NCBI GenBank assembly: GCA_016208015.1
Contig: JACQYW010000015.1
Location: 43,903-107,902, forward strand
DNA: 64,000 nt
Reading direction: 5' to 3'
DNA from: Nitrosomonadales bacterium
Lineage (GTDB): Bacteria; Pseudomonadota; Gammaproteobacteria; Burkholderiales; Gallionellaceae
In this document: positions 26,755 through 53,583 of the stretch, one piece after another
Position numbering within the stretch: the first letter of the stretch is position 1
Layout of the letters: the number at the start of each line of letters is the position of its first letter
Program-made: the position numbers and the translations under genes
The notes under the pieces: model-generated
Databases searched by the model: none
What the model was told of the DNA's origin: nothing
What the model saw: only the letters and a program-made list of their open reading frames with translations

Positions 26755-28653
26755 ATGAGTGCGATCCATCCTTCCGAACTTTCGTTTATCACCAAACACG
26801 CACCGTTCGACCGCATGGAGCTGGCGCATGTGCTGTGGATGCTGGAACGCATGAATCTCGGTTACTACGCCGAGGGCGAGGTGATCGTCTCGCCCGAGCA
26901 GGGTGCGGTGGACCGTTTTCTTGTCATCAAGCAGGGCGTGGTGCACGGCGAGCAGAGCGTGGCCAAGGCGTCGGATGCCGATACCTGGCTGGAGCTGATG
27001 GAAGGCGAATGTTTCCCGCTCGGCGCGTTGCTGGCCAACCGTCCGGTGGCCAGCGTCTACCGTGCCGGCACCGATATCTTTTGTTATGAACTTCCGGCGG
27101 ATGCTTTCCGCGAACTGATCGGACTGAGCGCGGCGTTCCGCGATTTCTGCACGCGCCGCATCGCCAATCTGCTGGAACATTCCAAGCAGGTCATCCAGGC
27201 ACAGTACAGTCAGTCCAGCGTCGAACAGCAATCGCTGGCCAGCCCGTTATCGGCCATCATCCGCCGCGCACCTGTCACCTGTCCGCCCGAAACGTCCGTG
27301 CGGCAGGCACTGGAGACCATGCGCGAGAAGCGCATCGGCTCGATGGTCGCCGCCGAGGACGGACGTCCGCTCGGCATCATGACCTTGCACGATGTACTCG
27401 ACCGTATCGCGATCCCGCAGATCGATCTGGACCAGCCGGTCATCGAGGTGATGAGCACGCAACTCAACAGTCTGCCGCCGCAGGCGCTGGCGCACGAGGC
27501 GGCGCTGATGATGGCCAAGCATGGTTTCCGCCATGTGCTGGTGGTCGAGAACGAGAAGCTGGTCGGGTTGGTCTCGGAAAAGGACCTGTTCGCCCTGCAG
27601 CGCGTCGGCCTGCGCCAGATCGGCTCCGCCATCCGCCATGCGGCCACGCCGCAGGTGTTGCAGCAGGGCGCCGCCGACATCCGCAAGATGGCGCACAACA
27701 TGATGGCGCAGGGCGTGGCGCCGGAACAATTGACCCAGTTCATCTCCGCCTTCAACGACCTGCTCACCGCGCGCGTGGTGGAACTGGAATGCAAGGCCAG
27801 CGGGCTGCTCGGCACGCCGCTGCATGACGGCCTGTGCTGGATGGCGCTGGGATCGGAAGGGCGCTTCGAGCAGACGCTGAACACCGACCAGGACAACGCC
27901 ATCATCTTCGAGGTTCCGGCAGGCATGACGGCGGACCAGGTGCGCGAAAGACTGCTGCCCGTCGCTCGGCGCATCAACGAGACGCTGGCACTGTGCGGCT
28001 TCCCGCTGTGCAAGGGCGAGATCATGGCAAGCAACCCGAAGTGGTGCCTGTCGCTGGAAGAGTGGAAACGCACCTTCAACGGCTGGATCAGCGGCGGTTC
28101 GCCGGAGTCGCTGTTGAACGCCTCCATATTCTTTGATTTCCGCGCGCTCTATGGTGCGGAGCATCTGGCCGAAGACCTGCGCGGCTGGCTGGCGCGGGTC
28201 GCCAGCGACAACAGCCGCTTCCTGCACATGATGGCCGAGAACGCGCTGCGCAACCGTCCGCCGCTGGGCGTGGTGCGCGACTTCGTGGTGGGCAAGGAGA
28301 ACAAGCTCGACCTCAAGCTCAACGGCATCACACCCTTCGTCGATGCGGCGCGCATCTTCGGTCTCGCCACCGGTGTGACGCAGACCAATACCATCCAGCG
28401 CCTGCGCGCGAGTGCGGCCAGGATGAACCTGCATGAATCGGAGATCGACGCCTGGATCGATGCCTTGCTGTTCATCCAGGTGCTGCGTCTGCGCCACCAT
28501 GACGAAGCAAGTGCGCAGGGTCTGAGTGACGATGCGCTGGATAATCTGATCGATCCCGAGAAGCTGAACGAACTCGACCGCCGCATCCTGAAGGAAGCGT
28601 TCCGCCAGGCGCGCAAACTACAGGCACGCCTGGCGCTGGAGTATCACCTGTGA
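26755..28653 (+). CDS. cNMP-binding + 2xCBS + DUF294 (GlnD-like nucleotidyltransferase) protein
   Basis: N-terminal cNMP-like domain (GECFPLGAL), CBS pair, GSEGRFEQTLNTDQDN, SIFFDFR, LDLKLNG. Confidence 0.88.
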   Translation: MSAIHPSELSFITKHAPFDRMELAHVLWMLERMNLGYYAEGEVIVSPEQGAVDRFLVIKQGVVHGEQSVAKASDADTWLELMEGECFPLGALLANRPVASVYRAGTDIFCYELPADAFRELIGLSAAFRDFCTRRIANLLEHSKQVIQAQYSQSSVEQQSLASPLSAIIRRAPVTCPPETSVRQALETMREKRIGSMVAAEDGRPLGIMTLHDVLDRIAIPQIDLDQPVIEVMSTQLNSLPPQALAHEAALMMAKHGFRHVLVVENEKLVGLVSEKDLFALQRVGLRQIGSAIRHAATPQVLQQGAADIRKMAHNMMAQGVAPEQLTQFISAFNDLLTARVVELECKASGLLGTPLHDGLCWMALGSEGRFEQTLNTDQDNAIIFEVPAGMTADQVRERLLPVARRINETLALCGFPLCKGEIMASNPKWCLSLEEWKRTFNGWISGGSPESLLNASIFFDFRALYGAEHLAEDLRGWLARVASDNSRFLHMMAENALRNRPPLGVVRDFVVGKENKLDLKLNGITPFVDAARIFGLATGVTQTNTIQRLRASAARMNLHESEIDAWIDALLFIQVLRLRHHDEASAQGLSDDALDNLIDPEKLNELDRRILKEAFRQARKLQARLALEYHL

Positions 28654-29357
28654 TGAAGTGGCTTGGCAGTTGGTTCGGTCCGAAGGTGCGGCTGGATACC
28701 GGGCAGCAGCGCCGCCTGACTGCGTGGCAGGCACTGCCGCAAGCGGAACTCAAAGTGCCGGTCGCCGAGTCGCGCTGCGTCGTCGTGGACGTGGAGACCA
28801 CCGGCCTCAACCTGATGCAGGACCGGCTCATCTCCATCGGTGCCGTGGCGGTGGTCAACGGCAAGATCGCGCTGGGCGACAGCTTCTACGTGGTGTTGCA
28901 GCAACAGGCGGCCAGCGACAAGGGCAACATCCTGCTGCATGGCATCGGTACTTCGGCGCAGCTCGAGGGCGAGCCGCCGGTCGAGGCGCTGCTGGCCTTT
29001 CTGGAGTATCTCGGCAAATCGCCGCTGGTCGCTTTTCACGTGACCTTCGACGAGACCATGATCAAGCGCGCCCTGCGCGATTATCTGGGACTCAACTTCA
29101 AACATCCGTGGTCGGATCTGGCCTATGTGATGCCCGGTCTCAACCCGCCGCTGGCGCGCAAATATCGCGCGCTGGATCACTGGATCGGACATTTCAACAT
29201 CCGCATCGATGCCCGCCACAACGCACTGGCCGATGCTCTCGCCACCGCGCAACTGTTCCAGGTCGCGCATGCCCAGGCACTCGGCAAGAACATCCCCGAC
29301 ATGGCCGGCCTGCGTGACCTGGAAAAGAACCAGCGCTGGGTCAGTGCTGTAAGTTGA
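28653..29357 (+). CDS. DEDDh 3'-5' exonuclease (DnaQ-like)
   Basis: VVDVETTG, FHVTFD, HNALADA. TGATG coupling to the upstream gene. Confidence 0.9.
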   Translation: MKWLGSWFGPKVRLDTGQQRRLTAWQALPQAELKVPVAESRCVVVDVETTGLNLMQDRLISIGAVAVVNGKIALGDSFYVVLQQQAASDKGNILLHGIGTSAQLEGEPPVEALLAFLEYLGKSPLVAFHVTFDETMIKRALRDYLGLNFKHPWSDLAYVMPGLNPPLARKYRALDHWIGHFNIRIDARHNALADALATAQLFQVAHAQALGKNIPDMAGLRDLEKNQRWVSAVS

Positions 29358-29366
29358 ACGTAAGTC
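29347..29366 (+). promoter_or_regulatory. Putative OmpR-family response-regulator box upstream of DUF485-actP
   Basis: CTGTAAGTTGAACGTAAGTC: GTAAG repeated at 11-bp spacing. Shares CTGTAAGTTG with the box at 34878. Confidence 0.5.
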
Positions 29367-29446: not shown

Positions 29447-29767
29447 ATGTCCAGCAGCAACTTCAATTGGGCGGTGATCGATGCCGATCCCAAATTTCAG
29501 GCTCTGCACCGGAAGAAGACTTTCTTCCTGTGGGGGCTGATGGTTTTTTCCATCATCTATTACTTCCTGTTGCCCATCGGTGCGGCGTATTACCAGGAGC
29601 TGTTCAAGACCAAGGTGTGGGGCGTCGTCAACTTCGGCCTGCTGTTCGCCTTGTCCGAGTTCGTGGTGGCCTGGGTGATCGCGTTCGTCTATTCGAAGAA
29701 GGCCAATGCCCAATTCGACGCGATGGCGCAAGAGATCATCAACGATGTGAATAGCGGGAGGATCTGA
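29447..29767 (+). CDS. DUF485 (YjcH-like) small membrane partner of ActP
   Basis: DPKFQALHRKK, two TM helices, YSKKANAQFD. Coupled to actP. Confidence 0.88.
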   Translation: MSSSNFNWAVIDADPKFQALHRKKTFFLWGLMVFSIIYYFLLPIGAAYYQELFKTKVWGVVNFGLLFALSEFVVAWVIAFVYSKKANAQFDAMAQEIINDVNSGRI

Positions 29768-31848
29768 TGAGCATGTTGAATAAATTGATGCTGTCTGCGG
29801 CCGCCCTGGGCGCCAGCAGCGCAGCGTTCGCGGGCAACGGCGCGGTCGCCGACGAGTTCAAGTGGATGACCTTCACCGTTTTCGGCGTGATCATCGCCAT
29901 TACCATGGCGATCACTTTCTGGGCGGCACGCACCACGCACACGACTTCCGAGTTCTATGCGGCAGGCCGTTCGGTCAGCGGTATCCAGAACGGCTGGGCG
30001 ATCGCGGGCGACTATCTGTCCGCCGCGTCCTTCCTCGGTATCGCCGGTCTGATCTCCCTGTACGGCTACGACGGCTTCATGTATTCCGTGGGCTGGCTGG
30101 TGGCTTACATCACCGTGTTGCTGGTGATCGCCGAGCCTTGCCGCAACATCGGCAAGTACACCATGGGCGACATCCTGGCCTTCCGCAACGACCCCAAGAA
30201 GACCAAGACCGTGGCGGCGCTGTCCACCATCACCGTGTCCACCTTCTACCTGACCGCGCAAATGGTCGGCGGCGGCGTGCTGATCAAGACGCTGATCGGC
30301 ATCGACTACGAGATCTCCGTGATCGGCGTGGGTATCCTGATGCTGGCCTACGTGGTGTTCGGCGGCATGAAGGCGACCACCTGGGTGCAGATCACCAAGG
30401 CCGTGCTGCTGGTGACCGCTTCCATCATCCTCGTGATCATGGTGTGGGCACCGTACGGATTCAGCCTGCCGGGCTACCTGCAAGCCGTGGTCGGCGATGC
30501 GGATGTGCAGAAACAAGTCGCCAAGCTGTTGGGCGACAAGGCTGCAACCATGACACCGGAAGAGCTGGGTCAACGCTTCCTCGAACCAGGCCTGTTCCTG
30601 AAGAACCCGATCGACCAGATCTCGCTGGGTCTGGCACTGGTGCTGGGTACCGCCGGCATGCCGCACATCCTGATGCGCTTCTTCACCGTGCCGACGGCAC
30701 AGGCTGCGCGCACTTCCGTGATCTGGGCGATGGGTATCATCGGCGGCTTCTACGTGCTGACCCTGTTCCTGGGCACCGGTGCTGCGATGCTGGTCGGTCC
30801 GGACAAGATCGCTGCGGTGGACGCGGGCGGCAACATGGCCGGTCCGCTGCTGGCACAGTTCCTGGGCGGTGGCGAGAACTCCCTGCTGGGTAACTTCATG
30901 CTGGCCTTCGTTGCTGCAGTTGCTTTTGCAACTATCGTGGCAGTGGTGGCGGGTCTGGTGCTGGCAGCGGCTTCCGCAATGGCGCACGACATCTATGTCG
31001 GCGTGATCCGCGGCGACCATGCCACTCCGAAAGAACAAGTGGTTGCAGCGCGCGTGGCTTCCGTCATCGTCGGCGTGATCGCGATCACCGTCGGCATCCT
31101 GGCCAAGGGCCAGAACGTGGCTCACCTGGTGGCGCTGGCGTTCGCGGTGGCTGCTTCCTCCAACCTGCCGGCCGTATTCCTCACGCTGTACTGGAAGAAG
31201 TGCAATACCACCGGCATCATCCTCGGCATGATCGTGGGTACCGTGACCGCCATCGGTCTGGTGATGATCTCCCCCAACATGACCTATCCGAAGGCAGTCA
31301 TCGCCTCGGCTAACAAGGTGTTGAGCGGTGAGCCTGCTGTGCCCGCCAAGGAAGCCGCACCCGCTGTCGAGCGTTCCAGCTTCATGTGCGAACTGTTTGC
31401 CATGGAAGGCTGCGTACTGGCCAAACCGGCACAAGCCGCAGCGGCTGAAAAACCGGCCAAGCCGGGCGCTGCCGAGAAGCTGGCCGGTTTGAATGCCAGG
31501 CTGCCGACTCTGGAAACGGATCTCGCCAAGGCTGCCACTCCCGAGCTCAAGGCAACTGTCGAAGCCGACCTCGCCAAGGTGAAGAAAGATATCGCCGCGG
31601 TTGAGAAGGCCAAAGCAAAGGCCGAGGGCGACTTGGCCAAGTTCGAAGGCCAGACCACCAGCATCATGGGTCTGGAGAAGCCATTCTTCCTGTTGAAGAA
31701 CCCCGGCCTGATCTCCATCCCGCTGGGCTTCCTGCTGGTCATCTTCGGTTCGTTGTTCACCCGCGACAAGCGTGCGGAAGAGATGTGGGACGAACTCTAC
31801 GTGCGCCAGAACACCGGCATCAACGCAGAGGCCGCATCGGCTCACTAG
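29767..31848 (+). CDS. actP: Cation/acetate (monocarboxylate) symporter, ActP-like, with a large C-terminal loop insertion
   Basis: FYAAGRS, QNGWAIAGDYLSAASFLG, GTAGMPHILMRFFTVP, AASAMAHD, NPGLISIP. Confidence 0.88.
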   Translation: MSMLNKLMLSAAALGASSAAFAGNGAVADEFKWMTFTVFGVIIAITMAITFWAARTTHTTSEFYAAGRSVSGIQNGWAIAGDYLSAASFLGIAGLISLYGYDGFMYSVGWLVAYITVLLVIAEPCRNIGKYTMGDILAFRNDPKKTKTVAALSTITVSTFYLTAQMVGGGVLIKTLIGIDYEISVIGVGILMLAYVVFGGMKATTWVQITKAVLLVTASIILVIMVWAPYGFSLPGYLQAVVGDADVQKQVAKLLGDKAATMTPEELGQRFLEPGLFLKNPIDQISLGLALVLGTAGMPHILMRFFTVPTAQAARTSVIWAMGIIGGFYVLTLFLGTGAAMLVGPDKIAAVDAGGNMAGPLLAQFLGGGENSLLGNFMLAFVAAVAFATIVAVVAGLVLAAASAMAHDIYVGVIRGDHATPKEQVVAARVASVIVGVIAITVGILAKGQNVAHLVALAFAVAASSNLPAVFLTLYWKKCNTTGIILGMIVGTVTAIGLVMISPNMTYPKAVIASANKVLSGEPAVPAKEAAPAVERSSFMCELFAMEGCVLAKPAQAAAAEKPAKPGAAEKLAGLNARLPTLETDLAKAATPELKATVEADLAKVKKDIAAVEKAKAKAEGDLAKFEGQTTSIMGLEKPFFLLKNPGLISIPLGFLLVIFGSLFTRDKRAEEMWDELYVRQNTGINAEAASAH

Positions 31849-31871
31849 AACTACAAGCAGTTCATCCCTTC

Positions 31872-32045: not shown

Positions 32046-32717
32046 ATGAATATCAGGTCATGGGGATGGATGTTGATGGGTTGCGCGGTTGCTATGCCGG
32101 CTTTGGCTCAGGATGGTGACTACAACGTCGCGGCAACCAATTCGTATGCCCTGCTGAGTGCCGGTCGCTCCAGTACGCCGGCGGCTTGCGATAACAGATG
32201 GCTGGCTGACTCGACTTGCAGCTCCAAGGGCACGATCTATCGGCTCGGCTATGGATATAACCTGAACTCGCTTCTGGGTGTCGAGATCAGTTATGGTGAT
32301 TTTGCACATGCCAGAGAGGATGGGATCGATCCCACTCCGCCGGCGATAATTCCGGGTGGCGGACCCATACCTTACTATCGGACCTGGTCGGTGATCGGCT
32401 GGGAACTCGCAGCGGTCGCTACGGTGCACCTGGGGCAGCACCTGTCTTTGCATGGAAAGGCGGGATGGCTGCGTGCCAATATGGAAGAGGAGGTCTGGTA
32501 CTACGCGTTGAATGGCGAGTTGTGGCATGGCAACTATCATGAGACCAGGAACACCACTTCAGTCAGCGGCGGCATCCAGTACGATTTCAACCGTGACGTC
32601 GGTTTGCGCTTCCAGGTCAACCGCTATAACAAGCTGCCGGGTGCCTATCAGCTGGACGGCACCACTTACCGGTTCAAAACGACCTCGGCACTTGCCAGTC
32701 TGGTGTTGAAGTTTTAA
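32046..32717 (+). CDS. Small outer-membrane beta-barrel protein (OmpA-TM/porin-like)
   Basis: Signal peptide (ALA|Q), alternating beta strands (LGYGYNL, GGIQYDF), C-terminal Phe. Confidence 0.75.
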   Translation: MNIRSWGWMLMGCAVAMPALAQDGDYNVAATNSYALLSAGRSSTPAACDNRWLADSTCSSKGTIYRLGYGYNLNSLLGVEISYGDFAHAREDGIDPTPPAIIPGGGPIPYYRTWSVIGWELAAVATVHLGQHLSLHGKAGWLRANMEEEVWYYALNGELWHGNYHETRNTTSVSGGIQYDFNRDVGLRFQVNRYNKLPGAYQLDGTTYRFKTTSALASLVLKF

Positions 32718-32735: not shown

Positions 32736-34199
32736 TCAAGCCCCGCCGTAAAACGCGGGGCTTTTTCTTGGGTCGTCGGCTATCGTTGGCGCAGGCGGCG
32801 GACGGCGCGGGAAGCGGATGCTGATCACCGTGCCTTTGCCGCCGCTGCCCGCATCCAGTCTGAGCGTGGCGTGGTGGCGCTTGGAGACTTCGGCGACGAT
32901 AGCGAGGCCGAGCCCGCTTCCGCTCTGTCCGGTTCCCAGCACACGGTAGAAACGCTCGAACACGCGCTCGCGGTGTTGCGGGTCGATGCCGGGGCCGTTG
33001 TCTTCCACGCTCAATACGCTGCCCTGTGCCGTCGCATTGACGCTGACGGTGATGTGTCCACTTGCGGGCGTGTAGCGGATCGCGTTGTCGATCAGGTTGT
33101 TGAGCATCTCGATCAGGCTGCTCGCATCGCCCATCGCTTCTGCGGCTGCGGGCGCGCCATCGAAGCCGAGGTCGATATTCTTTTCCAGCGCTGCCGAAAT
33201 CCAACCAGCGGTGCATTCCTGCGCCAACTGGTTGAGATTGATCGCGACGAAATTCTCGCTACCCTGGCCGCCCGGCTCGTTGCGCGCCAGCGCCATCAGC
33301 TGGTTGACCAGGCGGATGCCGTGCTGGGTACTGGTGAGGATATGCTCCAGCGCCTGCTGTTTCTGTTCCGGGTCGGTCGTGCGCAAGGCCAGTTCGGACT
33401 GGGTCTTCAGGCCCGCGATAGGTGTGCGTAACTGGTGCGCGGCGTCGGCGACGAAACGTTTTTGCGCCTGCATCGCCTGTTGCAGGCGTTCGAGCAGGTT
33501 GTTCACCGCATCGATCAGCGGGCGCACTTCTTCCGGTGCCAGACTGCCATCGAGTTGGCTCAGGTCGTCGCGACTGCGGTTCTTCACTTCGCGCCGCAGC
33601 CGTTCCAGCGGGGCCAGACCCTGCTTCAGCGCGTACCACACGGCGGCTACCGCGATGAGGATCAGCAGCAATTGCGGAATGACGATGTTGGCGAGGATGC
33701 CGCGTATCAGCGCCTGCCGTTGCTGGATGGTCTCAGACATATGCAACTGGTACAGCTTCTTGCTGTCGGGGTTGTAGAACACCATGCTCACGTTGCGTGT
33801 CTTTGCACCGTCGCGTTCGCCATTGCTGAACAGCGGATTGATCTTGCCGCCGCGGTACGCCAGCGGCCGACCGAGATTGGCGTTTCCGGCGAGCTTCTTT
33901 CCCTCGCGGTCGCTGACGGTATAGAACACCTTGTCCGGCGAGGTGGGCGAGGAGCCATCGGGCAGTTTCAGGTCGATCTCCAGGCGTTCCCGGCCACCGC
34001 CCAAGCGAAGCTGTTCCGCCACCGCCTGCGCGCGCTGCAGCAGCACCTGGTCGTACGGCTTGTTGGCGTAGTTCAGGGTGGCGACATAACCGGCGATGGT
34101 GCTGAACAGCCACAAAACGAACAGCGGCGTCAGCAGCCAGTTGATGAGGTGGATGCGTAGCGAGAGGACATCGGCACCCGATTCGGCGGGACTAGCCAT
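32736..34199 (-). CDS. Sensor histidine kinase, TctE/QseC-like
   Basis: TM-periplasmic-TM, HAMP, DAAHQLRTP, NLIDNAIRY, DNGPGI, GSGLGL. Confidence 0.9.
   Translation of the reverse strand: MASPAESGADVLSLRIHLINWLLTPLFVLWLFSTIAGYVATLNYANKPYDQVLLQRAQAVAEQLRLGGGRERLEIDLKLPDGSSPTSPDKVFYTVSDREGKKLAGNANLGRPLAYRGGKINPLFSNGERDGAKTRNVSMVFYNPDSKKLYQLHMSETIQQRQALIRGILANIVIPQLLLILIAVAAVWYALKQGLAPLERLRREVKNRSRDDLSQLDGSLAPEEVRPLIDAVNNLLERLQQAMQAQKRFVADAAHQLRTPIAGLKTQSELALRTTDPEQKQQALEHILTSTQHGIRLVNQLMALARNEPGGQGSENFVAINLNQLAQECTAGWISAALEKNIDLGFDGAPAAAEAMGDASSLIEMLNNLIDNAIRYTPASGHITVSVNATAQGSVLSVEDNGPGIDPQHRERVFERFYRVLGTGQSGSGLGLAIVAEVSKRHHATLRLDAGSGGKGTVISIRFPRRPPPAPTIADDPRKSPAFYGGA
32738..32767 (+). terminator. 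Terminator for the barrel gene, overlapping the 3' end of the convergent kinase gene
   Basis: AAGCCCCGC...GCGGGGCTT + TTT. Confidence 0.75.
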
Positions 34200-34875: not shown

Positions 34876-34877
34876 GG

Positions 34878-34897
34878 GTCTGTAAGTTGTCTGTAAG
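34878..34897. promoter_or_regulatory. Direct-repeat box for the adjacent response regulator
   Basis: GTCTGTAAG at 34878 and 34889 (perfect 9-mers, 11-bp period), in the divergent intergenic region. Confidence 0.65.
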
Positions 34898-37468: not shown

Positions 37469-37502
37469 AAAGAGGCCTGCGCAAGCAGGCCTCTTTATTT
37501 TT
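37469..37502 (+). terminator. Rho-independent terminator
   Basis: AAAGAGGCCTGC-GCAA-GCAGGCCTCTTT + T-run. Confidence 0.88.
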
Positions 37503-37680: not shown

Positions 37681-37686
37681 AGGTTT

Positions 37687-38277: not shown

Positions 38278-38391
38278 TGCAGTGACCCGTTGATGAAAGC
38301 AGGTGTCATTCTGCGCATTGCACACCGTGGCCGCAAGCATAATCGCCGCGAGGTGATAAAATCCGGGCTTGTTCAATCCAATCACAAAATC

Positions 38392-46700: not shown

Positions 46701-48047
46701 ATGAATATGCGACTGCCCTTCTTCCATCGCGCGGCGACCTTTGAGCACGGTATCCATCCGGACTACCACAAGGAGACCGGGAGCCTGCCGATCAAGCGCC
46801 TGGCTTTTGCGCCGCGCCTGATCGTGCCGCTGTCGCAGCACATCGGCAAACCTGCCGTGTGTTGCGTCAGCGTGGGAGAAGAAGTTTTGCGCGGCCAGGT
46901 CATCGCGACGGCGGATGGTTTCGTCTCGCTGCCCGTGCATGCCCCGGCGACCGGTGTGGTGGAAGCCATCGGCGTGATGCCCGCAGCCAACGGCAAGATG
47001 GTGGATTCCATCACCCTCCGCGTGTACGAGGCCGACAGCCAGCAAGTGCAGGTGAGCGCTCCGCGCGATATCGAAGCGATGGACAAGAAGGAACTGCTGG
47101 CCGCGATCCAGAGCACCGGCATCTCCGGTCTGGGCGGCGCGACCTTTCCCGCGCACGTGAAGCTCAGCGTGCCGCCGGATGTCGTGATCGACACCATGGT
47201 CGTCAACGGCGCCGAATGCGAACCCTTCCTGACCTGCGACCACCGCATCATGGTGGAGCGCACCAAGGACCTGATCCGCGGCATCCGCATCGCGATGAAG
47301 GTCAGCGGTGCGCCGCGCACCATCATCGGTGTCGAAGACAACAAGCCGGATGCCATCGCCGCGATCCGGGCGGCATTGCCCGCCGACGGCACGATCACGG
47401 TGCAGGCGCTGGAGACCAAATATCCGCAGGGCGCGGAAGACACCATCATCTACGCGCTGCTCGGGCGCGAGATCCCCGCCGGTCAGCGTCCTGCCTCCAT
47501 CGGCGTGCTGGTGAACAACGTGATGACGCTGGCTTATCTGGGTCGCCTGCTGCCCGCGGGCGAAGGCATCGTCGAGCGCGTGCTCACCGTGGCCGGTCCC
47601 GGCGTGGAAAAGCCCGGCAACTACATCGTTCCCATCGGCACCCCGTTGCGCTTCCTGCTCGAACAGGTCGGTGCAAAGAGCAGCGCGCAGGAGATCATCC
47701 TCGGCGGGCCGATGATGGGCATGACCATCTCGTCGCTGGACGTGCCGGTGACCAAGGGCACTTCCGGTGTACTCGCCTTCGGCAAGGGCGAATTGCAGGA
47801 GGAAACGCCGCGCGTCTACGCCTGCATCAAGTGCGGCGAATGCCTCAAGGTGTGCCCGAAGTTCCTCAATCCCTCGCAACTCGGCTTGCTGGCGGCCAAG
47901 CGCGAATATGCCGAGATGGCCGAGCGCTACAACCTGGACCGCTGTTTCGAGTGCGGCTGCTGCAGCTACGTCTGCCCGTCGCATATTCCGCTGGTGCAAC
48001 AGTTCCGCATCGCCAAAGCGGTCAATAGAGAGAAAGCCTCAGCATGA
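46701..48047 (+). CDS. rnfC: Rnf subunit C
   Basis: PLSQHIGKP, GLGGATFP, NGAECEPFLTCD, KYPQGAE, GGPMMG, CIKCGEC, CFECGCCSYVCPS. Confidence 0.95.
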   Translation: MNMRLPFFHRAATFEHGIHPDYHKETGSLPIKRLAFAPRLIVPLSQHIGKPAVCCVSVGEEVLRGQVIATADGFVSLPVHAPATGVVEAIGVMPAANGKMVDSITLRVYEADSQQVQVSAPRDIEAMDKKELLAAIQSTGISGLGGATFPAHVKLSVPPDVVIDTMVVNGAECEPFLTCDHRIMVERTKDLIRGIRIAMKVSGAPRTIIGVEDNKPDAIAAIRAALPADGTITVQALETKYPQGAEDTIIYALLGREIPAGQRPASIGVLVNNVMTLAYLGRLLPAGEGIVERVLTVAGPGVEKPGNYIVPIGTPLRFLLEQVGAKSSAQEIILGGPMMGMTISSLDVPVTKGTSGVLAFGKGELQEETPRVYACIKCGECLKVCPKFLNPSQLGLLAAKREYAEMAERYNLDRCFECGCCSYVCPSHIPLVQQFRIAKAVNREKASA

Positions 48048-49084
48048 GCATGGAACTCCGTACCTCCCCGCATCAAATAAGCGACCGCAGCGTCGAACGC
48101 ATCATGAAGCACGTGGTGCTGTCGCTGCTGCCGGTCTGCGGATTCTCGATCTGGCAATACGGCCTGTCGGCACTGGCGCTGTTGCTGACCGTGACCGCGA
48201 CCTGTCTTGCCACCGAGCGCCTGCTCAATCGTGCCGCCAGCCAGCCGAGCACGCTGAACGACTGGAGCGCCACCATCACCGGCGTGCTGCTGGCGCTGAC
48301 GCTGCCGCCCGCGTTCCCGCTGTGGATGGCGGTCGTCGCCGGTTTTGTCGCCATCGCCATCGGCAAGGCGCTGTTCGGCGGACTGGGCTTCAACGTGTTC
48401 AACCCGGCGCTGATCGGCCGCGCTTTCGTGCAGGCCGCTTTCCCGGTCGCCATCACCACCTGGGTCCCGGCGTTCTCGGCGCAACGCTTCAGCGAGTTCG
48501 TACCGACCACGCTGACCGCGCCGCTGATGATGCCGCCCGATATCGTCGAATGGATCAAGCTGCAAGCCGTCGATGCCTTCACCGGCGCGACGCCGCTGGC
48601 GCGCTGGAAGTTCGAGAACGTGGTCGCCTCTTCCTATGACTTGCTGACCGGTGTCGTGACCGCTTCCGCAGGCGAGACCTCGGCCATCCTCATCCTGTTG
48701 TGCGGCGCTTACCTCGCCGCACGCAAATTCATGGACTGGCGCATCCCGGTGGCGGTGCTGGCTTCGGCTGCACTCACCGCGTGGATGTTCCAGCTGTACG
48801 ACCCGACCCACTACCCCGCACCGAGCTTCGTGCTGCTCTCCGGCGGTCTGATGCTGGGCGCGGTGTACATGGCGACCGACATGGCGACCTCGCCGGTGAC
48901 GCCGCTGGGTGTGTGGATCTACGGCGCGGTGATCGGCGTGGTGACGGTGATGATCCGTTATTTCGGCGGCCTGACCGAGGGGGTGATGTACGCCATTCTG
49001 CTCGGCAACGCGCTGACCCCGTTCATCGACCTGTACACGCAGCCGCGCGTGTTCGGGACCCGCCAGCAAGGGAAGAAAAAATGA
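48044..49084 (+). CDS. rnfD: Rnf subunit D
   Basis: SPH, FGGLGFNVFNPA, DAFTGATPL (FMN-Thr), GETS, MATD. Confidence 0.95.
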   Translation: MSMELRTSPHQISDRSVERIMKHVVLSLLPVCGFSIWQYGLSALALLLTVTATCLATERLLNRAASQPSTLNDWSATITGVLLALTLPPAFPLWMAVVAGFVAIAIGKALFGGLGFNVFNPALIGRAFVQAAFPVAITTWVPAFSAQRFSEFVPTTLTAPLMMPPDIVEWIKLQAVDAFTGATPLARWKFENVVASSYDLLTGVVTASAGETSAILILLCGAYLAARKFMDWRIPVAVLASAALTAWMFQLYDPTHYPAPSFVLLSGGLMLGAVYMATDMATSPVTPLGVWIYGAVIGVVTVMIRYFGGLTEGVMYAILLGNALTPFIDLYTQPRVFGTRQQGKKK

Positions 49085-49758
49085 GCGAGCCGACCCAAGT
49101 TCAAGTGACGCCAAGCGGCAAGATGATCGCCACCATGGCGCTGGTCGCCAGCATCTGTGGCGTGCTCATCGTCGGCGCCTTCGAGGGCACGCAGGATGCG
49201 ATCGCCGAGAACAAACGCATCATGCTCGAGCGCGCCGTGTTCAAAGTGTTGCCCGGAGCGGCGAGCGTGCGTGAATACGCCGCGACGAGCGCCGGTATCC
49301 GGCAGCTGGCAGCGGGCGCAGCCTTGCCGGAAGGCGGCGTGAAGTTCTATGCCGCTTACGACCAGGCCGGTGTGCTGAAAGGTGTCGCCGCCGAAGCCGC
49401 CGGCAAGGGTTATGCCGACGTGGTGCGCGTGCTTTACGGTTATGACGCGGAACGCCAGGTCATCATCGGGATCGGCGTGGTGTCCATGCGCGAAACACCG
49501 GGCATCGGCGACAAGATCATCACCGACCAAGCGTTCCTGAAGAACTTCGAGGCATTGGATGTGCGCGTGAATGCCGAGCTGACGGCGCTGGCCAATGCGG
49601 TGAAAGTCGTCAAGCACGGCAGCAAGACCGATCCGTGGCAGATCGATGCCATCGCCGGTGCGACGGTGACTTCCAAAGCGGTCGGTCGCGGCATCAACGA
49701 CAGCGCGCAGAAACTGCTGCCGCTGCTGGTCCCCCATATCGCGGAGTTGAAATCATGA
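49081..49758 (+). CDS. rnfG: Rnf subunit G
   Basis: N-terminal TM, GKGY, ETPGIG, IDAIAGATVTS (FMN site). Confidence 0.93.
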   Translation: MSEPTQVQVTPSGKMIATMALVASICGVLIVGAFEGTQDAIAENKRIMLERAVFKVLPGAASVREYAATSAGIRQLAAGAALPEGGVKFYAAYDQAGVLKGVAAEAAGKGYADVVRVLYGYDAERQVIIGIGVVSMRETPGIGDKIITDQAFLKNFEALDVRVNAELTALANAVKVVKHGSKTDPWQIDAIAGATVTSKAVGRGINDSAQKLLPLLVPHIAELKS

Positions 49759-50390
49759 GCCTGCCCAATCAAGCCGACGAAGGCATCACCTTCGACACCT
49801 TCATGGAAGGCGTGTGGCGCCAGAACCCGGTGTTCGTGATGGTGCTGGGCATGTGCCCGACGCTGGCGGTCACCGTCTCCGCCGTCAACGGCCTGTCGAT
49901 GGGCGTCGCCACCCTGTTCGTGCTGGTCAGTTCCTGTCTGCTGGTGTCGCTGATCCGCCACCTGGTGCCCAAGGAAGTGCGCATCGCCACCTACATCGTG
50001 ATCATCGCCACTTTCGTGACGCTGGTCGATTACCTGATCCAGGCGGCCAGTCTGGCCCTGTATGAAGCACTGGGCGCGTTCATCCAGCTGATCGTGGTCA
50101 ACTGCATCATCCTCGGCCGCGCCGAAGCGCACGCGTCGAAGAACCCGCCGCTGAAAGCCGTGATCAACGCGCTGGGCATGGGCGTCGGTTTCGCCATCGG
50201 CCTGTTCGCGCTGGGCGCGACGCGCGAGATCCTGGGGGCGGGCAAGCTGTTCGGCATCACGCTGTTCGGCGAGAATTTCCAGCCCTGGGTGGTGATGGTG
50301 TTGCCGCCGGGCGGCTTCTTCGTGCTGGGCGGCTGGCTGTTGCTGTTCTCGCTGCTGCGCAGCCGCAAGGAAGGGAAGGTGCAGGCATGA
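49755..50390 (+). CDS. rnfE: Rnf subunit E
   Basis: QNPVF...LGMCPTLA, LIVVNCIILGRAE, PPGGF. Confidence 0.95.
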   Translation: MSLPNQADEGITFDTFMEGVWRQNPVFVMVLGMCPTLAVTVSAVNGLSMGVATLFVLVSSCLLVSLIRHLVPKEVRIATYIVIIATFVTLVDYLIQAASLALYEALGAFIQLIVVNCIILGRAEAHASKNPPLKAVINALGMGVGFAIGLFALGATREILGAGKLFGITLFGENFQPWVVMVLPPGGFFVLGGWLLLFSLLRSRKEGKVQA

Positions 50391-50971
50391 ACGAATCATT
50401 GAGCCAGATATTCATCGGCACGCTGCTGACCAACAACTTCGTGCTGGCCATGTTCCTCGGTCTGTGCCCCTTCCTTGGCGTATCGAGCCGTCTGGGCACC
50501 GCGGTTCCGATGGGCGCGGCGACGACCTTCGTGATGCTGGTCGCGTCGGTGTGCGCCTACGCGCTGAACCTGCTGCTGAACTATTTCCAGCTCGAATTCC
50601 TGCGCCTGATCTCCTACATCGTGGTGATCGCTTCTTCGGTGCAACTGGTCGAGATGGTGATGAAGAAGTACAGCCCGGCGCTGTTCCGCGCGCTCGGCAT
50701 CTTCCTGCCGCTGATCACCACCAACTGCGCGGTGCTGGCGGTGGCGCTGTTCCAGACCGCGCGCGAATACAGTTTCTCGCAATCGCTGGTGTTCGCGCTC
50801 GGCGGCGGTGCCGGCTTCACGCTGGCGCTGGTGCTGATGGCCTCGCTGCGCGAGCGCTTGCAACTCTCCAACGTGCCGACGCTGGTGCAGGGCACAGCGC
50901 TATCGCTGATCCTGGCGGGCCTGCTGTCGCTGACCTTCATGGGCTTCGCCGGATTGGGAGCGGGCGAATGA
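50387..50971 (+). CDS. rnfA: Rnf subunit A
   Basis: NNFVLAMFLGLCPFLG, LGIFLPLITTNCAVL. Confidence 0.95.
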   Translation: MNESLSQIFIGTLLTNNFVLAMFLGLCPFLGVSSRLGTAVPMGAATTFVMLVASVCAYALNLLLNYFQLEFLRLISYIVVIASSVQLVEMVMKKYSPALFRALGIFLPLITTNCAVLAVALFQTAREYSFSQSLVFALGGGAGFTLALVLMASLRERLQLSNVPTLVQGTALSLILAGLLSLTFMGFAGLGAGE

Positions 50972-51153
50972 TCTATTTGAAAACGATACTGATCGTACTG
51001 GGCCTGCTGGCCGGCTGGCTGGTCGTGCGCGCCATCGCGCGCCGCTTCGCCGCGCATCATCCCGAGTTCGGCGCGGTGCGCGAAGAGGGTGAAGGCTGCG
51101 GCTGCGGCAACCACAAGTGCGGCACCGACCAGTGCAAGCGCGAGGCGCATTGA
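50968..51153 (+). CDS. 61-aa membrane microprotein with Cys-rich C-terminal tail
   Basis: ATGA overlap with the rnfA stop; MIYLKTILIVLGLLAGWLVVRAIARR...GCGCGNHKCGTDQC. Confidence 0.7.
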   Translation: MIYLKTILIVLGLLAGWLVVRAIARRFAAHHPEFGAVREEGEGCGCGNHKCGTDQCKREAH

Positions 51154-51207
51154 GAGCAGATATTTATTTGTTCGGAAGATAGCAGTTCAACTTAACAGGA
51201 GAAGTTC

Positions 51208-53583
51208 ATGCAACCGTACGTCATTCCTTTCCAGTCTCTGGGAATCGCAGACATCCCGGAAGTGGGCGGAAAGAACGCATCGCTCGGAGAGATGATCTCC
51301 AACCTGAGTTCATCCGGCGTCCATGTGCCCGGCGGTTTCGCTACCACGGCACAGGCATACCGTGATTTTCTGGCGCATGACGGACTGGACAAACGCATCG
51401 AACAGGCGCTGGTCAAACTGAACATCGAGGATGTCACCGCGCTGGCCGAAGCCGGTCGCATGATCCGCAACTGGATCGTCGAAGCGCCGCTGCCCAAGCG
51501 ACTGGAAGACGAGATCCGCACCCACTACGCCAAGCTGGCCGCGGAAGGCGAAGGCAGCTTCGCGGTGCGTTCGTCGGCGACGGCAGAAGACCTGCCGGAC
51601 GCTTCGTTCGCTGGACAGCAGGAGACTTTCCTGAACATCCAGGGCATCGAGAACATCCTGCACGCGATCCGCGAAGTGTTCGCCTCGCTGTACAACGACC
51701 GCGCGATCTCTTACCGCGTGCACAAAGACTTTACGCATGCCGACGTGGCGCTGTCCGCCGGGGTGCAGCGCATGGTGCGTTCCGATCTGGGCGCGTCCGG
51801 CGTGTTGTTCACGCTGGATACCGAATCCGGTTTCCGCGACGCGGTGTTCGTCACTTCGTCTTTCGGTCTGGGCGAGATGGTAGTGCAGGGTGCGGTGAAT
51901 CCGGACGAGTTCTATGTGCACAAACAGCAACTGGCTGCGGGCTATCCGGCTGTCATCCGCCGCGCGCTGGGTTCCAAACAACAACGCATGGTGTTCGATG
52001 AGCAGCGTTCAGCCGGGCGTTCCTGCCGCATCGAACCGGTGCCGGTCGCCGACCAGCAGCGCTTCTCGCTCAGCGATGAAGACGTGCTGCAACTGGCACG
52101 CTACGCGGTCTCCATCGAGAAGCACTACGGGCGTCCGATGGACATCGAGTGGGGCAAGGACGGCATCGACGGCAAGCTCTACATCCTGCAAGCGCGCCCC
52201 GAGACGGTGAAGTCGAACGCGGGCAACGGCGGCACGGAGAAATTCCGCCTGCACCAGCGCGGCACCGTGCTGGTCGAAGGCCGCGCCATCGGCCAGAAGA
52301 TCGGCTCCGGCCGCGTGCGCATCGTCGCCAGCACCGCCGAGATGGACAAGGTGCAGGAAGGCGACGTGCTGGTCACCGACATGACCGACCCGAACTGGGA
52401 GCCGGTGATGAAGAAGGCTGCCGCCATCATCACCAACCGCGGCGGCCGCACCTGCCATGCCGCCATCATCGCGCGCGAACTGGGCATCCCCGCCATCGTC
52501 GGTTGCGGCCATGCCACCACCGCCTTGCAGGAAGGCGAGACCGTCACCGCCTCCTGTGCCGAAGGTGACACCGGTTACGTCTATCACGGCAAGCTGAATT
52601 TTGAAGTGGCCGTGCACAGCGAAGAAGAACTGCCGCCCATTCCCGTCAAGCTCATGCTCAATGTGGGCAATCCCACGCTGGCCTTCGAGTTCGCGCAACT
52701 GCCGTCGGCGGGCGTCGGTCTGGCGCGCCTCGAATTCATCATCAACAACCTCATCGGCATCCACCCCAAGGCGGTGCTGGAGCACAACAAGCTGCCGGCC
52801 AAACTTCACGAAGCCGTGCTGCAACGCTCGGCGGGTTACGCCAGCCCCGAGGAGTTCTACGTCGAGAAGATCACCGAGGGCGTGTCCACACTGGCGGCCG
52901 CGTTCTGGCCCAAGCCCGTGATCGTGCGCATGTCCGACTTCAAGTCGAACGAATACCGCAAGCTGATCGGCGGCGATATCTACGAGCCGATGGAAGAGAA
53001 CCCGATGATCGGTTTCCGCGGCGCGGGCCGTTACGTCGCGGCGAATTTCTCGGATTGTTTCGAATTGGAATGCCGCGCGATGAAGCGTGCGCGCGAGAAG
53101 CTCGGCTACACCAACATCGAGCTGATGATCCCCTTCGTGCGCACCGTCAAGGAAGCGAGCGAAGTCGTCTCCACGCTGGCCAAGCACGGTCTGAAACGCG
53201 GCGACAAAGGCCTGCGCCTGATCATGATGTGCGAGATCCCGTCCAACGCGCTACTGGCGGAAGAGTTCCTGCAACACTTCGACGGCTTCTCCATCGGCTC
53301 CAACGACCTGACCCAGCTCACGCTCGGTCTGGACCGCGACTCCAGCCTGGTGGCGGACCGCTTCGACGAGCGCGACCCGGCGGTGAAGGCATTGCTGAAG
53401 ATGGCGATCACGACCTGCAACCGTCTGGATAAATACGTGGGCATCTGCGGACAGGGCCCATCCGATCATTTCGATTTCGCCGAGTGGCTGGTTGAAGCAG
53501 GCATACAGACCATGTCGCTGAACCCGGACACGGTCATCGAGACCTGGCGCAGATTGGCCGAGAAAGGAATTGCCAAGCCTTAA
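51208..53583 (+). CDS. ppsA: Phosphoenolpyruvate synthase
   Basis: [50 protein letters not shown]. Confidence 0.97.

What the first reader, a model, noticed from the sequence alone, without database searches (positions are those of the whole stretch)
26755..53583. A ~27-kb carboxylate-to-PEP supercluster
Seen: two monocarboxylate-type symporter operons with their regulators, then ppsR, LysR, rnf/por and ppsA. ppsR and ppsA, which are neighbours in E. coli, here bracket the LysR-rnf-por block. No acs or ackA-pta lies in the window. Inference: uptake (ActP), reductive carboxylation (PFOR-Rnf) and gluconeogenic entry (PpsA under PpsR control) form a glyoxylate-shunt-independent route for acetate assimilation or mixotrophy.
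Basis: inference. Interest (0 to 1): 0.65.

Follow-up and report, generated by a model that had tools for sequence, protein, structure and literature searches.

The report
Carboxylate uptake beside Rnf-pyruvate enzyme-PEP synthase
An iron-oxidising, CO2-fixing bacterium keeps two organic-acid importers next to a conserved gene set that ties the pyruvate/acetyl-CoA reaction to a membrane ion pump and to PEP synthase; this may let it build biomass from acetate without the glyoxylate shunt, but the direction of the key reaction is untested.

Summary
The organism is a Gallionellaceae (Sideroxydans/Sideroxyarcus type).

The 27 kb is two separable units, not one operon.

- **Unit A, uptake.** It holds a DUF294-exonuclease pair, DUF485 plus an ActP/MctC-like symporter, a TctE/TctD-like two-component system, and a DUF4212 plus VC_2705-type symporter. 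A CTGTAAG-N4-CTGTAAG box precedes both symporter operons. It occurs only four times in the genome; the other two copies precede pyruvate carboxylase and the cbb3 oxidase.
- **Unit B, pyruvate node.** It reads LysR | rnfB - 1643-aa ferredoxin-fused PFOR - rnfCDGEA - 61-aa Cys-rich protein - ppsA. The rnf-PFOR core recurs in all informative loci from Beta- and Gammaproteobacterial iron and sulfur oxidisers. ppsA follows in 19 of them.

A and B lie together in at least 6 of 13 related genomes, in three different layouts. In sister lineages the same box also precedes rnfB.

The genome has acs, pyruvate dehydrogenase, a full TCA cycle and a methylcitrate cluster. It lacks isocitrate lyase (0 of 121 genomes in the family), malate synthase, ackA-pta and pflB. 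A separate Rnf sits by nifH.

Rnf-driven pyruvate synthesis feeding PEP synthase is therefore plausible (about 0.45). Energy-conserving pyruvate oxidation is the main rival (about 0.3). The embedded-PFOR Rnf operon was already noted in 2014.

The parts
26755..28653 (+). cNMP-binding/CBS/DUF294 putative nucleotidyltransferase (COG2905 type)
   Evidence: Pfam DUF294, DUF294_C, CBS and cNMP_binding. Found with DnaQ next to ActP or SSS operons in G001, G003, G005, G006, G010 and G014.
28653..29357 (+). DnaQ-like DEDD 3'-5' exonuclease, start overlapping the DUF294 stop
   Evidence: NCBIfam 3'-5' exonuclease families, E 1e-28.
29347..29364 (+). Response-regulator box 1, CTGTAAGTTGAACGTAAG, 83-100 bp before DUF485
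   Evidence: Sequence. One of only 4 GTAAG-N6-GTAAG sites in the 2.57-Mb genome. Same position in G001, G003, G005, G006 and G010.
29447..29767 (+). DUF485 (YjcH-like) small membrane partner of the symporter
   Evidence: Pfam DUF485, 91.8 bits.
29767..31848 (+). ActP/MctC-like sodium:solute symporter, 693 aa, with an Ala/Lys/Glu-rich insert of about 150 aa near the C-terminus
   Evidence: MctC model 587.6 bits (cut-off 670) and ActP models below cut-off. SSS superfamily 216.7 bits (cut-off 184). Tail sequence.
32046..32717 (+). Small outer-membrane beta-barrel protein
   Evidence: Pfam OMP_b-brl and OmpA_membrane.
32736..34199 (-). Sensor histidine kinase (QseC/TctE-like)
   Evidence: NCBIfam hits, all below equivalog cut-offs.
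34192..34875 (-). OmpR-family response regulator (TctD/PmrA-like)
   Evidence: TctD 232 bits and PmrA 230 bits, both below cut-off.
34880..34897 (+). Response-regulator box 2, CTGTAAGTTGTCTGTAAG, in the RR|SSS intergenic region
   Evidence: Conserved in L018, L033, G001 and G002.
35096..35359 (+). Symporter small subunit (TIGR03647 / DUF4212)
   Evidence: 105 bits, cut-off 26.
35359..37446 (+). VC_2705-family sodium/solute symporter, large subunit
   Evidence: TIGR03648, 759.6 bits, cut-off 320.75.
37469..37496 (+). Intrinsic terminator-like hairpin (12 pairs) ending the second symporter operon
37687..38385 (-). TPR-repeat protein, hidden under a spurious 359-aa plus-strand ORF
38392..38703 (+). 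103-aa membrane protein directly upstream of ppsR, no family
38723..39538 (+). PpsR, regulatory kinase/phosphorylase of PEP synthase (start inferred from where the model match begins)
   Evidence: NF049928, 388 bits, cut-off 350.
39522..40469 (-). LysR-type regulator divergent from rnfB
   Evidence: Orthologue (63-92% identity) in the same position in 30 or more loci of both classes.
40507..40563 (.). Conserved operator block with ATTGA repeats between lysR and rnfB
   Evidence: Alignment of 19 Gallionellaceae intergenic regions.
40698..41582 (+). RnfB-like polyferredoxin subunit
   Evidence: NCBIfam RnfB-type models, below cut-offs. Pfam FeS and Fer4.
41591..46522 (+). 1643-aa single-chain PFOR-like enzyme. 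It has inserts in the ferredoxin domain (between C811 and C937) and in the TPP domain (between C1018 and C1145), an Ala-rich linker and a C-terminal single-cluster ferredoxin domain (C1572, C1575, C1578, C1614).
   Evidence: Homologues at 64-92% identity in 80 loci.
46701..48047 (+). RnfC
   Evidence: TIGR01945, 491.5 bits, cut-off 246.
48044..49084 (+). RnfD
   Evidence: TIGR01946, 295.6 bits, cut-off 207.
49081..49758 (+). RnfG
   Evidence: Pfam FMN_bind. Start.
49755..50390 (+). RnfE
   Evidence: TIGR01948, 224.3 bits, cut-off 213. Start.
50387..50971 (+). RnfA
   Evidence: TIGR01943, 242.7 bits, cut-off 229.
50968..51153 (+). 61-aa protein with one transmembrane helix and a Cys-rich tail, overlapping the rnfA stop
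   Evidence: Conserved right after rnfA in 58 of 59 loci. No family match.
51208..53583 (+). PEP synthase PpsA
   Evidence: NF005057, 1229 bits, cut-off 598.
53703..53724 (+). Terminator-like hairpin after ppsA. No strong terminator lies between rnfA and ppsA.

Best explanation
The stretch is two functional units that selection or shared ancestry keeps near each other in this lineage.

**Unit A** is a carboxylate-responsive uptake regulon. A TctE/TctD-like two-component system acts through a CTGTAAG-N4-CTGTAAG box. It would switch on a DUF485 plus ActP/MctC-like symporter and a DUF4212 plus VC_2705-type symporter. In this genome the same box also precedes the two-subunit pyruvate carboxylase and the cbb3 oxidase.

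**Unit B** is a conserved module at the pyruvate node, under its own LysR regulator. It consists of a dedicated Rnf complex, a giant PFOR with its own tethered ferredoxin, a small Cys-rich membrane protein and PEP synthase, with PpsR nearby.

**Proposed mechanism.** Rnf spends the membrane ion gradient to push electrons from NADH through RnfB and the tethered ferredoxin into the PFOR. The PFOR carboxylates acetyl-CoA to pyruvate, and PpsA makes PEP. Acetyl-CoA would come from imported acetate through Acs. Pyruvate made from propionate by the methylcitrate cycle, or imported directly, would enter at PpsA and pyruvate carboxylase. A Calvin-cycle iron oxidiser with no glyoxylate shunt would thereby gain a cheap second carbon entry (mixotrophy).

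**Shown:** gene content, conservation, the box, and the genome's enzyme inventory.
**Inferred:** the transporter substrates, regulation by this response regulator, physical coupling of PFOR to Rnf, and above all the reductive direction.
For: **Core module**
- rnfB-PFOR-rnfCDGEA is present in all loci with enough flank, across two classes.
- The divergent LysR is present in 30 or more loci, with a conserved operator.
- ppsA begins 217-430 bp after rnfA in 19 loci, six of them Gammaproteobacteria. It is on the same contig within 10 kb in 30 of 35 PFOR-positive, PpsA-positive family genomes.
- No strong terminator lies between rnfA and ppsA.

**PFOR features**
- All three cluster Cys sets are kept, plus an invariant C-terminal ferredoxin Cys set.

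**Own genome**
- acs scores 997 bits, above the cut-off.
- There is no isocitrate lyase and no aceB, glcB, ackA, pta or pflB.
- PDH E1 is present, so an oxidative route already exists.
- A separate Rnf lies 8 kb from nifH, and there are three rnf clusters in all.
- No class I PHA synthase was found, so stored polymer is not the acetyl-CoA source.
- A prpBCD plus prpE-like cluster is present.

**Regulon box**
- The box occurs 4 times in the genome, all 4 in promoter regions.
- It sits at the same positions in 7 or more relatives, including the rearranged G006.
- In G002 and G005 it precedes both a symporter operon and rnfB.

**Adjacency and literature**
- Units A and B are adjacent in three layouts.
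- PFOR-based assimilation of acetyl-CoA has been proposed for microaerophilic sulfur oxidisers (PMC6593406) and for R. rubrum (PMC13768988).
- The role of Rnf in Gallionellaceae is an acknowledged unknown (PMC10734462).
Against: - Nothing here shows direction. PFOR and Rnf are both reversible.
- Published readings of this arrangement are oxidative or fermentative (PMC4287430, PMC10734482).
- In 8 other loci the gene after the Rnf small protein is a ferredoxin-NADP reductase-like gene instead of ppsA. That fits a ferredoxin-oxidising hub at least as well.
- The box before pyruvate carboxylase and the mutant data for the VC_2705 family (lactate, D-alanine; bioRxiv 10.1101/072470) point to C3 acids. 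These reach pyruvate without any reductive step.
- PpsA also occurs in 51 of 84 family genomes without the PFOR.
- By the table in PMC6593406, some symbionts with PFOR and Rnf also have a glyoxylate shunt.
- Ferrigenium straubiae reportedly does not grow on acetate (bioRxiv 10.64898/2026.01.22.701106).
- In this genome no response-regulator box precedes rnfB.
- The ethylmalonyl-CoA pathway was not checked.
Confidence: 0.45

Rival explanations
1. Oxidative, energy-conserving pyruvate branch. Imported pyruvate or other C3 acids, pyruvate from propionate, or pyruvate from glycogen is oxidised by the PFOR. The tethered ferredoxin hands the electrons to Rnf, which makes NADH and pumps ions. This would be a low-oxygen substitute for pyruvate dehydrogenase. 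PpsA and pyruvate carboxylase are then the parallel anabolic branches from the same pyruvate pool, which would explain why ppsA sits in the operon.
For: - The Solemya velum symbiont paper reads pyruvate as electron donor to this Rnf (PMC4287430). The Gallionellaceae rice-plaque paper reads the PFOR as fermentative (PMC10734482).
- An FNR-like gene follows the module in 8 loci.
- The response-regulator box precedes pyruvate carboxylase and the cbb3 oxidase.
- VC_2705-type symporters have lactate and D-alanine phenotypes (bioRxiv 10.1101/072470).
- A full TCA cycle with sucAB is present.
- Sideroxydans sp. CL21 grows on lactate or pyruvate (PMC12442390).
Against: - PDH is already present.
- There is no ackA, pta or pflB for ATP-yielding acetate formation.
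- No lldD, lldP or lutABC was found in this genome.
- This reading gives acetate taken up through an ActP-type carrier no route to net biomass, because there is no glyoxylate shunt.
Confidence: 0.3
2. No functional supercluster. The symporter units and the rnf-PFOR-ppsA module are unrelated neighbours, kept together only by shared ancestry within one clade.
For: - The symporters are absent from the neighbourhood in all non-Gallionellaceae loci.
- They lie on a different long contig in G001, and on other contigs in G004 and G006-G009.
- Seven or more transcription units, two strand switches and a strong terminator divide the 27 kb.
- This genome has no shared box at rnfB.
Against: - Adjacency persists in three different arrangements: upstream of LysR, the SSS block downstream of ppsA in G002, and the ActP block directly after ppsA in G005.
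- The same rare box precedes both a symporter operon and rnfB in G002 and G005.
- ppsR travels with the SSS block in G002 and G003.
Confidence: 0.12
3. The PFOR and Rnf supply reduced ferredoxin or flavodoxin to nitrogenase or other ferredoxin-dependent enzymes, in the manner of NifJ.
For: - The genome is diazotrophic (nifH).
- Rnf and NifJ have this role in other bacteria (cited in PMC10734482 and PMC13768988).
Against: - A separate rnfABCDGE cluster lies about 8 kb from nifH on another contig.
- The module is not next to nif genes in any locus examined.
- Not all Rnf-bearing Gallionellaceae have nif (PMC10734462).
- A tethered ferredoxin argues for private, not shared, electron delivery.
Confidence: 0.05

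Closest known systems
rnf2 operon (rnfB-PFOR-rnfCDGEA) of the Solemya velum gill symbiont (Dmytrenko et al. 2014, PMC4287430)
   Same: The PFOR gene lies between rnfB and rnfC, in the rnfBCDGEA gene order. The host is a Calvin-cycle chemolithoautotroph with a second, rnfABCDGE-type cluster.
   Different: That paper gave only a sentence and no experiment, and read pyruvate as the electron donor. It did not describe the ppsA link, the LysR regulator, the small Cys-rich protein, the tethered ferredoxin or any link to symporters.
Pyruvate-synthase route of acetate or acetyl-CoA assimilation (R. rubrum PFOR, cited in PMC13768988; proposed for 'Ca. Kentron', PMC6593406)
   Same: Acetyl-CoA plus CO2 plus reduced ferredoxin gives pyruvate, followed by PEP formation. 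It works without the glyoxylate shunt.
   Different: There the ferredoxin is reduced by photosynthesis, hydrogenases or unspecified sources, and the PFOR has the ordinary length of about 1170-1230 aa. Here a private Rnf and a fused ferredoxin are encoded with the enzyme, in a microaerophilic iron oxidiser. No activity has been measured.
CrbS/CrbR (MxtR/ErdR) acetate regulon of Vibrio and Pseudomonas (PMC5715377, PMC9927547)
   Same: A two-component system controls an actP-type symporter together with a CBS-domain protein and an exonuclease gene pair. The exonuclease gene affects pyruvate use in P. putida.
   Different: The sensor here is a classical periplasmic-type kinase (QseC/TctE-like), not an SLC5-STAC hybrid kinase. 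The regulator is of the OmpR type with a GTAAG direct repeat. acs is not in the cluster, and no box precedes it.
DUF4212 plus VC_2705-family symporters with mutant phenotypes (bioRxiv 10.1101/072470)
   Same: The symporter has two subunits, and a neighbouring COG2905 (DUF294) gene is cofit with it.
   Different: The tested members carry D,L-lactate or D-alanine. This genome lacks lldD and lutABC, so the substrate here may be pyruvate or another small acid.
E. coli ppsA-ppsR divergent pair
   Same: The enzyme and its regulatory protein are the same, each above its curated cut-off.
   Different: In E. coli they are adjacent and divergent. Here they are co-oriented and 11.7 kb apart, with LysR and the Rnf-PFOR genes between them. 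In relatives, ppsR follows ppsA (Gammaproteobacteria) or travels with the SSS block (G002, G003).

Membership tests
Rnf complex (RnfABCDGE) | All six subunits are encoded together. | tested here: met
   RnfC, D, E and A score above the TIGRFAM cut-offs. RnfG is identified by its FMN_bind domain. RnfB-like models score below cut-off (TIGR01944 64.6 vs 68.7) but the FeS and Fer4 domains are present.
Rnf complex (RnfABCDGE) | Ion-coupled ferredoxin:NAD+ oxidoreductase activity. | not testable with these tools
   Needs membrane biochemistry.
Single-chain PFOR (NifJ/YdbK type, TIGR02176) | Score above the curated equivalog cut-off. | tested here: not met
   423.5 bits against a cut-off of 911.35. 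The best solved relative is Moorella PFOR 6cin, matched only in pieces.
Single-chain PFOR (NifJ/YdbK type, TIGR02176) | Domains I, II, III, V and VI, with the TPP-binding domain and the Cys ligands of three [4Fe-4S] clusters. | tested here: met
   Pfam POR_N, PFOR_II, POR, Fer4 and TPP_enzyme_C. Two CxxCxxCxxxC motifs lie at 801 and 937, with further Cys at 1015, 1018, 1145 and 1276. All are invariant in 12 homologues.
Single-chain PFOR (NifJ/YdbK type, TIGR02176) | Pyruvate as the 2-oxoacid substrate. | tested here: inconclusive
   T56, R139, V148 and N1270 align with residues that I recall as the pyruvate contacts of the D. africanus enzyme (alignment; residue roles from memory). The ppsA linkage supports pyruvate. 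There is no assay.
PEP synthase PpsA and regulator PpsR | Scores above the curated equivalog cut-offs. | tested here: met
   PpsA 1229 vs 598; PpsR 388 vs 350.
Cation/acetate symporter ActP or monocarboxylate transporter MctC | Score above the equivalog cut-off. | tested here: not met
   TIGR02711 418 vs 1099; NF006903 518 vs 750; MctC NF058657 588 vs 670. It is a member of the SSS superfamily (217 vs 184) and has a DUF485 partner.
VC_2705-type two-subunit sodium/solute symporter | Large subunit TIGR03648 directly after small subunit TIGR03647. | tested here: met
   759.6 vs 320.75 and 105 vs 26; the genes abut.
Glyoxylate-shunt-independent acetate assimilation through pyruvate synthase | Acetate activation, PFOR, a source of low-potential electrons and PEP synthase are present, while isocitrate lyase and malate synthase are absent. 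| tested here: met
   The ethylmalonyl-CoA pathway was not checked.
Glyoxylate-shunt-independent acetate assimilation through pyruvate synthase | Net flux from acetyl-CoA to pyruvate in vivo. | not testable with these tools
   Needs isotope labelling or enzyme assays.
Conserved gene supercluster (uptake plus Rnf-PFOR plus PpsA) | The neighbourhood is kept across independent lineages. | tested here: inconclusive
   It is kept in at least 6 of 13 Gallionellaceae genomes in three layouts. It is absent in the other families that carry the Rnf-PFOR module.

The most novel reading that the evidence does not exclude
Rnf, the giant PFOR with its swinging ferredoxin and the 61-aa Cys-rich protein form one membrane-bound machine. 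It would use the ion gradient to carboxylate acetyl-CoA at low oxygen. Calvin-cycle iron and sulfur oxidisers would thereby gain a regulated, energy-cheap second carbon entry (acetate + CO2 -> pyruvate -> PEP), switched on by a carboxylate-sensing two-component system and a LysR regulator. This would explain the unexplained Rnf complexes of non-diazotrophic Gallionellaceae. It would also make many 'obligate' lithoautotrophs facultative mixotrophs.
Probability: 0.25. Interest if true: 0.75.

Novelty: new variant of a known kind. Interest (0 to 1): 0.5.

Why it matters
Gallionellaceae are treated as obligate autotrophs, and what their Rnf complexes do is an acknowledged unknown (PMC10734462). 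This locus gives a concrete, testable proposal. A private Rnf and a ferredoxin-fused PFOR would tie the pyruvate/acetyl-CoA step to the membrane potential and to PEP synthase. Carboxylate importers lie next to it, under a definable regulon.

If the reductive direction holds, energy-starved iron oxidisers can save most of the cost of making C3 units by co-assimilating acetate. That would change carbon budgets for iron mats, rice rhizospheres and aquifers. If the oxidative direction holds, the module is an energy-conserving bypass of pyruvate dehydrogenase at low oxygen.

Either way, the same module sits in sulfur-oxidising symbionts and purple sulfur bacteria, so a result in one cultured strain would carry over widely.

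Tried and rejected
- **Published transcriptomes.** The ES-1 and CL21 papers and the supplements held for them do not mention these genes.
- **Nitrogenase supply.** Largely rejected, because a separate Rnf lies by nifH.
- **Stored PHA as the acetyl-CoA source.** Rejected for this genome; no class I PHA synthase was found.
- **Lactate as the main substrate here.** Weakened; there is no lldP, lldD or lutABC, and dld and dadA give only weak hits.
- **Response-regulator box before rnfB in this genome.** None found. It exists only in Gallionella-type relatives.
- **The 359-aa ORF at 37624-38703.** Rejected as spurious.
- **The 61-aa protein.** No Pfam or NCBIfam family, including no NqrM-type hit.
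- **Strict dependence of PpsA on the PFOR.** Rejected; PpsA occurs in 51 of 84 PFOR-negative family genomes.
- **Structure prediction of the PFOR.** Not attempted. The protein exceeds the size limit, and a model would not settle direction.
- **Limits of the absence calls.** The absences rest on tblastn with E. coli proteins, so non-homologous substitutes would be missed (ADP-forming acetyl-CoA synthetase, CoA transferases, the ethylmalonyl-CoA pathway).

Full report
**Organism and observation.** The window is contig C11:43903-107902 of a 2.57-Mb, 18-contig genome rated 100% complete. The large PFOR-like protein is 91-92% identical to proteins of Sideroxydans lithotrophicus and Sideroxyarcus emersonii. 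The organism is therefore a Gallionellaceae iron oxidiser. It carries RuBisCO, nifH, pyruvate dehydrogenase E1 and a complete TCA cycle including sucAB.

Four corrections are needed.
- The 'regulators' of the first symporter are a cNMP/CBS/DUF294 nucleotidyltransferase and a DnaQ-like exonuclease.
- The 359-aa ORF before ppsR is spurious. It covers a minus-strand TPR gene and a 103-aa membrane protein.
- A 61-aa gene lies between rnfA and ppsA.
- The 27 kb holds at least seven transcription units, with a strong terminator after the second symporter and another after ppsA.

**The Rnf-PFOR-PpsA unit.** I aligned 12 homologues of the 1643-aa protein and used the alignment to fetch 80 genomic loci. 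tblastn with all window proteins shows rnfB-PFOR-rnfCDGEA wherever the flank suffices. The hosts span Gallionellaceae, Thiobacillaceae, Hydrogenophilales, Rhodocyclaceae, Methylotenera, Sedimenticola, Ca. Thiodiazotropha, Thiocapsa, Thiothrix and an Acidithiobacillales genome.
- The divergent LysR gene is kept in 30 or more loci at 63-92% identity. A block of about 55 bp with ATTGA repeats is conserved between it and rnfB in Gallionellaceae.
- The 61-aa protein (one transmembrane helix, RHPEFGP motif, Cys-rich tail) follows rnfA in 58 of 59 loci. It has no family match.
- ppsA starts 217-430 bp after rnfA in 19 loci, six of them gammaproteobacterial.
- In 8 other loci a ferredoxin-NADP reductase-like gene takes that place.
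- In a sample of 121 family genomes the PFOR occurs in 37, and in 24 of 26 in the window's own genus.
- PpsA occurs in 86 of those genomes: 35 of 37 with the PFOR and 51 of 84 without. In 30 of the 35 it lies within 10 kb downstream of the PFOR on the same contig.

The enzyme keeps the PFOR domains and all cluster cysteines. It has two large inserts, an Ala-rich linker and a C-terminal single-cluster ferredoxin domain, and it scores far below the NifJ-type cut-off. The genome holds three rnf clusters. One, in rnfABCDGE order, lies about 8 kb from nifH, so nitrogenase has its own Rnf.

**The uptake unit.** The first symporter belongs to the ActP/MctC branch but scores below every equivalog cut-off. 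The second is a clear two-subunit VC_2705-type carrier.

Following a lead from another first-stage note, I found a direct repeat before DUF485 and again between the response regulator and the second symporter. The consensus is CTGTAAG-N4-CTGTAAG, with one copy carrying ACGTAAG in its second half. The looser pattern GTAAG-N6-GTAAG occurs only four times in the whole genome. The other two sites lie directly upstream of a two-subunit pyruvate carboxylase and of ccoN. Three of the four sites match the 14 specified bases exactly; my own arithmetic from the base composition gives about 0.01 expected by chance.

The box recurs at the same positions in relatives.
- In G006 the kinase and regulator sit divergently beside DUF485-actP, with the box between them.
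- In four Gallionella-type loci (L002, L006, L008, L050) the box lies 30-40 bp before rnfB.
- Two of those genomes (G002, G005) also carry it at a symporter operon.
- This genome has no such box at rnfB.

The literature fits a carboxylate regulon.
- In P. putida, a CBS-domain gene and an exonuclease gene belong to the acetate two-component regulon, and the exonuclease gene affects pyruvate use (PMC9927547).
- DUF4212-type symporters are needed for growth on lactate or D-alanine, and they are cofit with a COG2905 gene (bioRxiv 10.1101/072470).

**Is it a supercluster?** Positions of the ActP-like, VC_2705-like and PpsA orthologues in 17 genomes, plus fetched regions, give the following picture.

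| Arrangement | Genomes |
|---|---|
| The two symporter operons lie next to each other | G000, G011, G001, G003, G014 |
| Both symporter units upstream of LysR | G000, G011 |
| SSS block upstream of LysR | G010, G012 |
| HK-RR-SSS-TPR-ppsR block downstream of ppsA | G002 |
| DUF294-DnaQ-DUF485-ActP directly after ppsA | G005 |
| Units on a different long contig | G001 |
| Units on other contigs | G003, G004, G006-G009 |

Outside Gallionellaceae the symporters are never in the neighbourhood. The adjacency is therefore more than a one-genome accident, but it is confined to one clade.

**Metabolic context.** The genome encodes an AMP-forming acs, a prpE-like ligase with prpB, prpC and prpD, pyruvate kinase and PEP carboxylase, and pyruvate carboxylase. 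It lacks the following:
- isocitrate lyase (0 of 121 family genomes);
- malate synthase A and G, ackA, pta and pflB;
- lldP, lldD and lutABC;
- class I PHA synthase.

Acetate can thus be activated and oxidised. It can reach C3 and C4 units only through reductive carboxylation of acetyl-CoA. Propionate or imported pyruvate would reach pyruvate directly.

**Mechanism and rivals.** My best reading is that Rnf uses the ion gradient to reduce the tethered ferredoxin of the PFOR from NADH. The PFOR makes pyruvate from acetyl-CoA and CO2, and PpsA makes PEP. The uptake regulon supplies acetate, propionate or pyruvate. I put this at 0.45.

The main rival (0.3) runs the same hardware in reverse. It would be an energy-conserving pyruvate oxidation at low oxygen, with PpsA and pyruvate carboxylase as parallel anabolic branches.
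- **In its favour:** the published readings (PMC4287430, PMC10734482), the FNR-like neighbour in other lineages, the box before pyruvate carboxylase, and growth of Sideroxydans CL21 on lactate or pyruvate (PMC12442390).
- **Against it:** the presence of PDH and the absence of ackA-pta.

Mere juxtaposition (0.12) and nitrogenase supply (0.05) are less likely, for the reasons given above. No computation available here settles direction.

**Comparison with what is known.** A PFOR between rnfB and rnfC was noted for the Solemya velum symbiont in 2014 (PMC4287430). Pyruvate-synthase assimilation of acetyl-CoA is established or proposed elsewhere (PMC13768988, PMC6593406). A 2026 review of PFOR diversity does not describe this 1640-aa, Rnf-embedded, ferredoxin-fused type. 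Earlier notes of this scan report the same module in other genomes. They are leads, not evidence, and they agree with what I found.

What this locus adds is threefold: the ppsA, LysR and small-protein anatomy; the family-wide lack of a glyoxylate shunt; and the carboxylate regulon box that links the symporters to pyruvate carboxylase and, in sister lineages, to rnfB.

**Verdict.** It is a new variant of a known kind, and I rate interest at 0.5.

Noticed in passing
window 50968-51153: A 61-aa protein with one transmembrane helix and a Cys-rich tail overlaps the rnfA stop. It is conserved after rnfA in 58 of 59 related loci (motif RHPEFGP, then a CG-rich tail) and has no family match. It may be a seventh subunit or a maturation factor of this Rnf type.
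   Followed up: partly
genome C8:283643 and C1:195251 (outside the window): The only other two copies of the CTGTAAG-N4-CTGTAAG box in the genome lie just upstream of a two-subunit pyruvate carboxylase (pycA-pycB) and of ccoN of a cbb3 oxidase. This suggests one carboxylate-responsive regulon.
   Followed up: partly
L036:19772-20629 and 7 other loci (L044, L049, L061, L068, L072, L073, L078): In Sulfuritalea, Rhodoferax, Sedimenticola and Thiocapsa, a 285-aa ferredoxin-NADP reductase-like gene follows the Rnf small protein where Gallionellaceae have ppsA.
   Followed up: partly
window 29767-31848: The ActP-like symporter has a signal-like N-terminal extension and an Ala/Lys/Glu-rich insert of about 150 aa before its last helices. 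Neither is usual for ActP or MctC.
   Followed up: no
window 37624-38703: The long plus-strand ORF is an artefact of high G+C. The real genes are a minus-strand TPR protein (37687-38385) and a 103-aa membrane protein (38392-38703) that precedes ppsR. The TPR-ppsR pair travels with the SSS block in G002.
   Followed up: partly
genome C8:524000-536000 (L089): A methylcitrate-cycle cluster (prpB, prpC, prpD and a prpE-like propionate-CoA ligase) sits in a supposedly lithoautotrophic genome.
   Followed up: partly
genome C8:52-57 kb and C9:6-11 kb: There are two further rnfABCDGE clusters, so the genome has three Rnf complexes. The C9 cluster lies about 8 kb from nifH. The role of the C8 cluster is unknown.
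   Followed up: no
window 19675-21435 (-): A dihydrolipoyl dehydrogenase with an N-terminal lipoyl domain (586 aa) lies away from the aceE gene, which is on contig C6.
   Followed up: no
window 53830-57477: A low-G+C stretch (0.53-0.54) after ppsA holds an MqsA-type antitoxin gene and two PorB-like porin genes. Another G+C dip (0.48) lies at 8-10 kb.
   Followed up: no
G002:C44:12112-14472 and G098:C41:523-2891: ppsA next to the Rnf-PFOR module carries an in-frame TAG in one relative and is split into two pieces in another. These may be assembly errors or decay.
   Followed up: no
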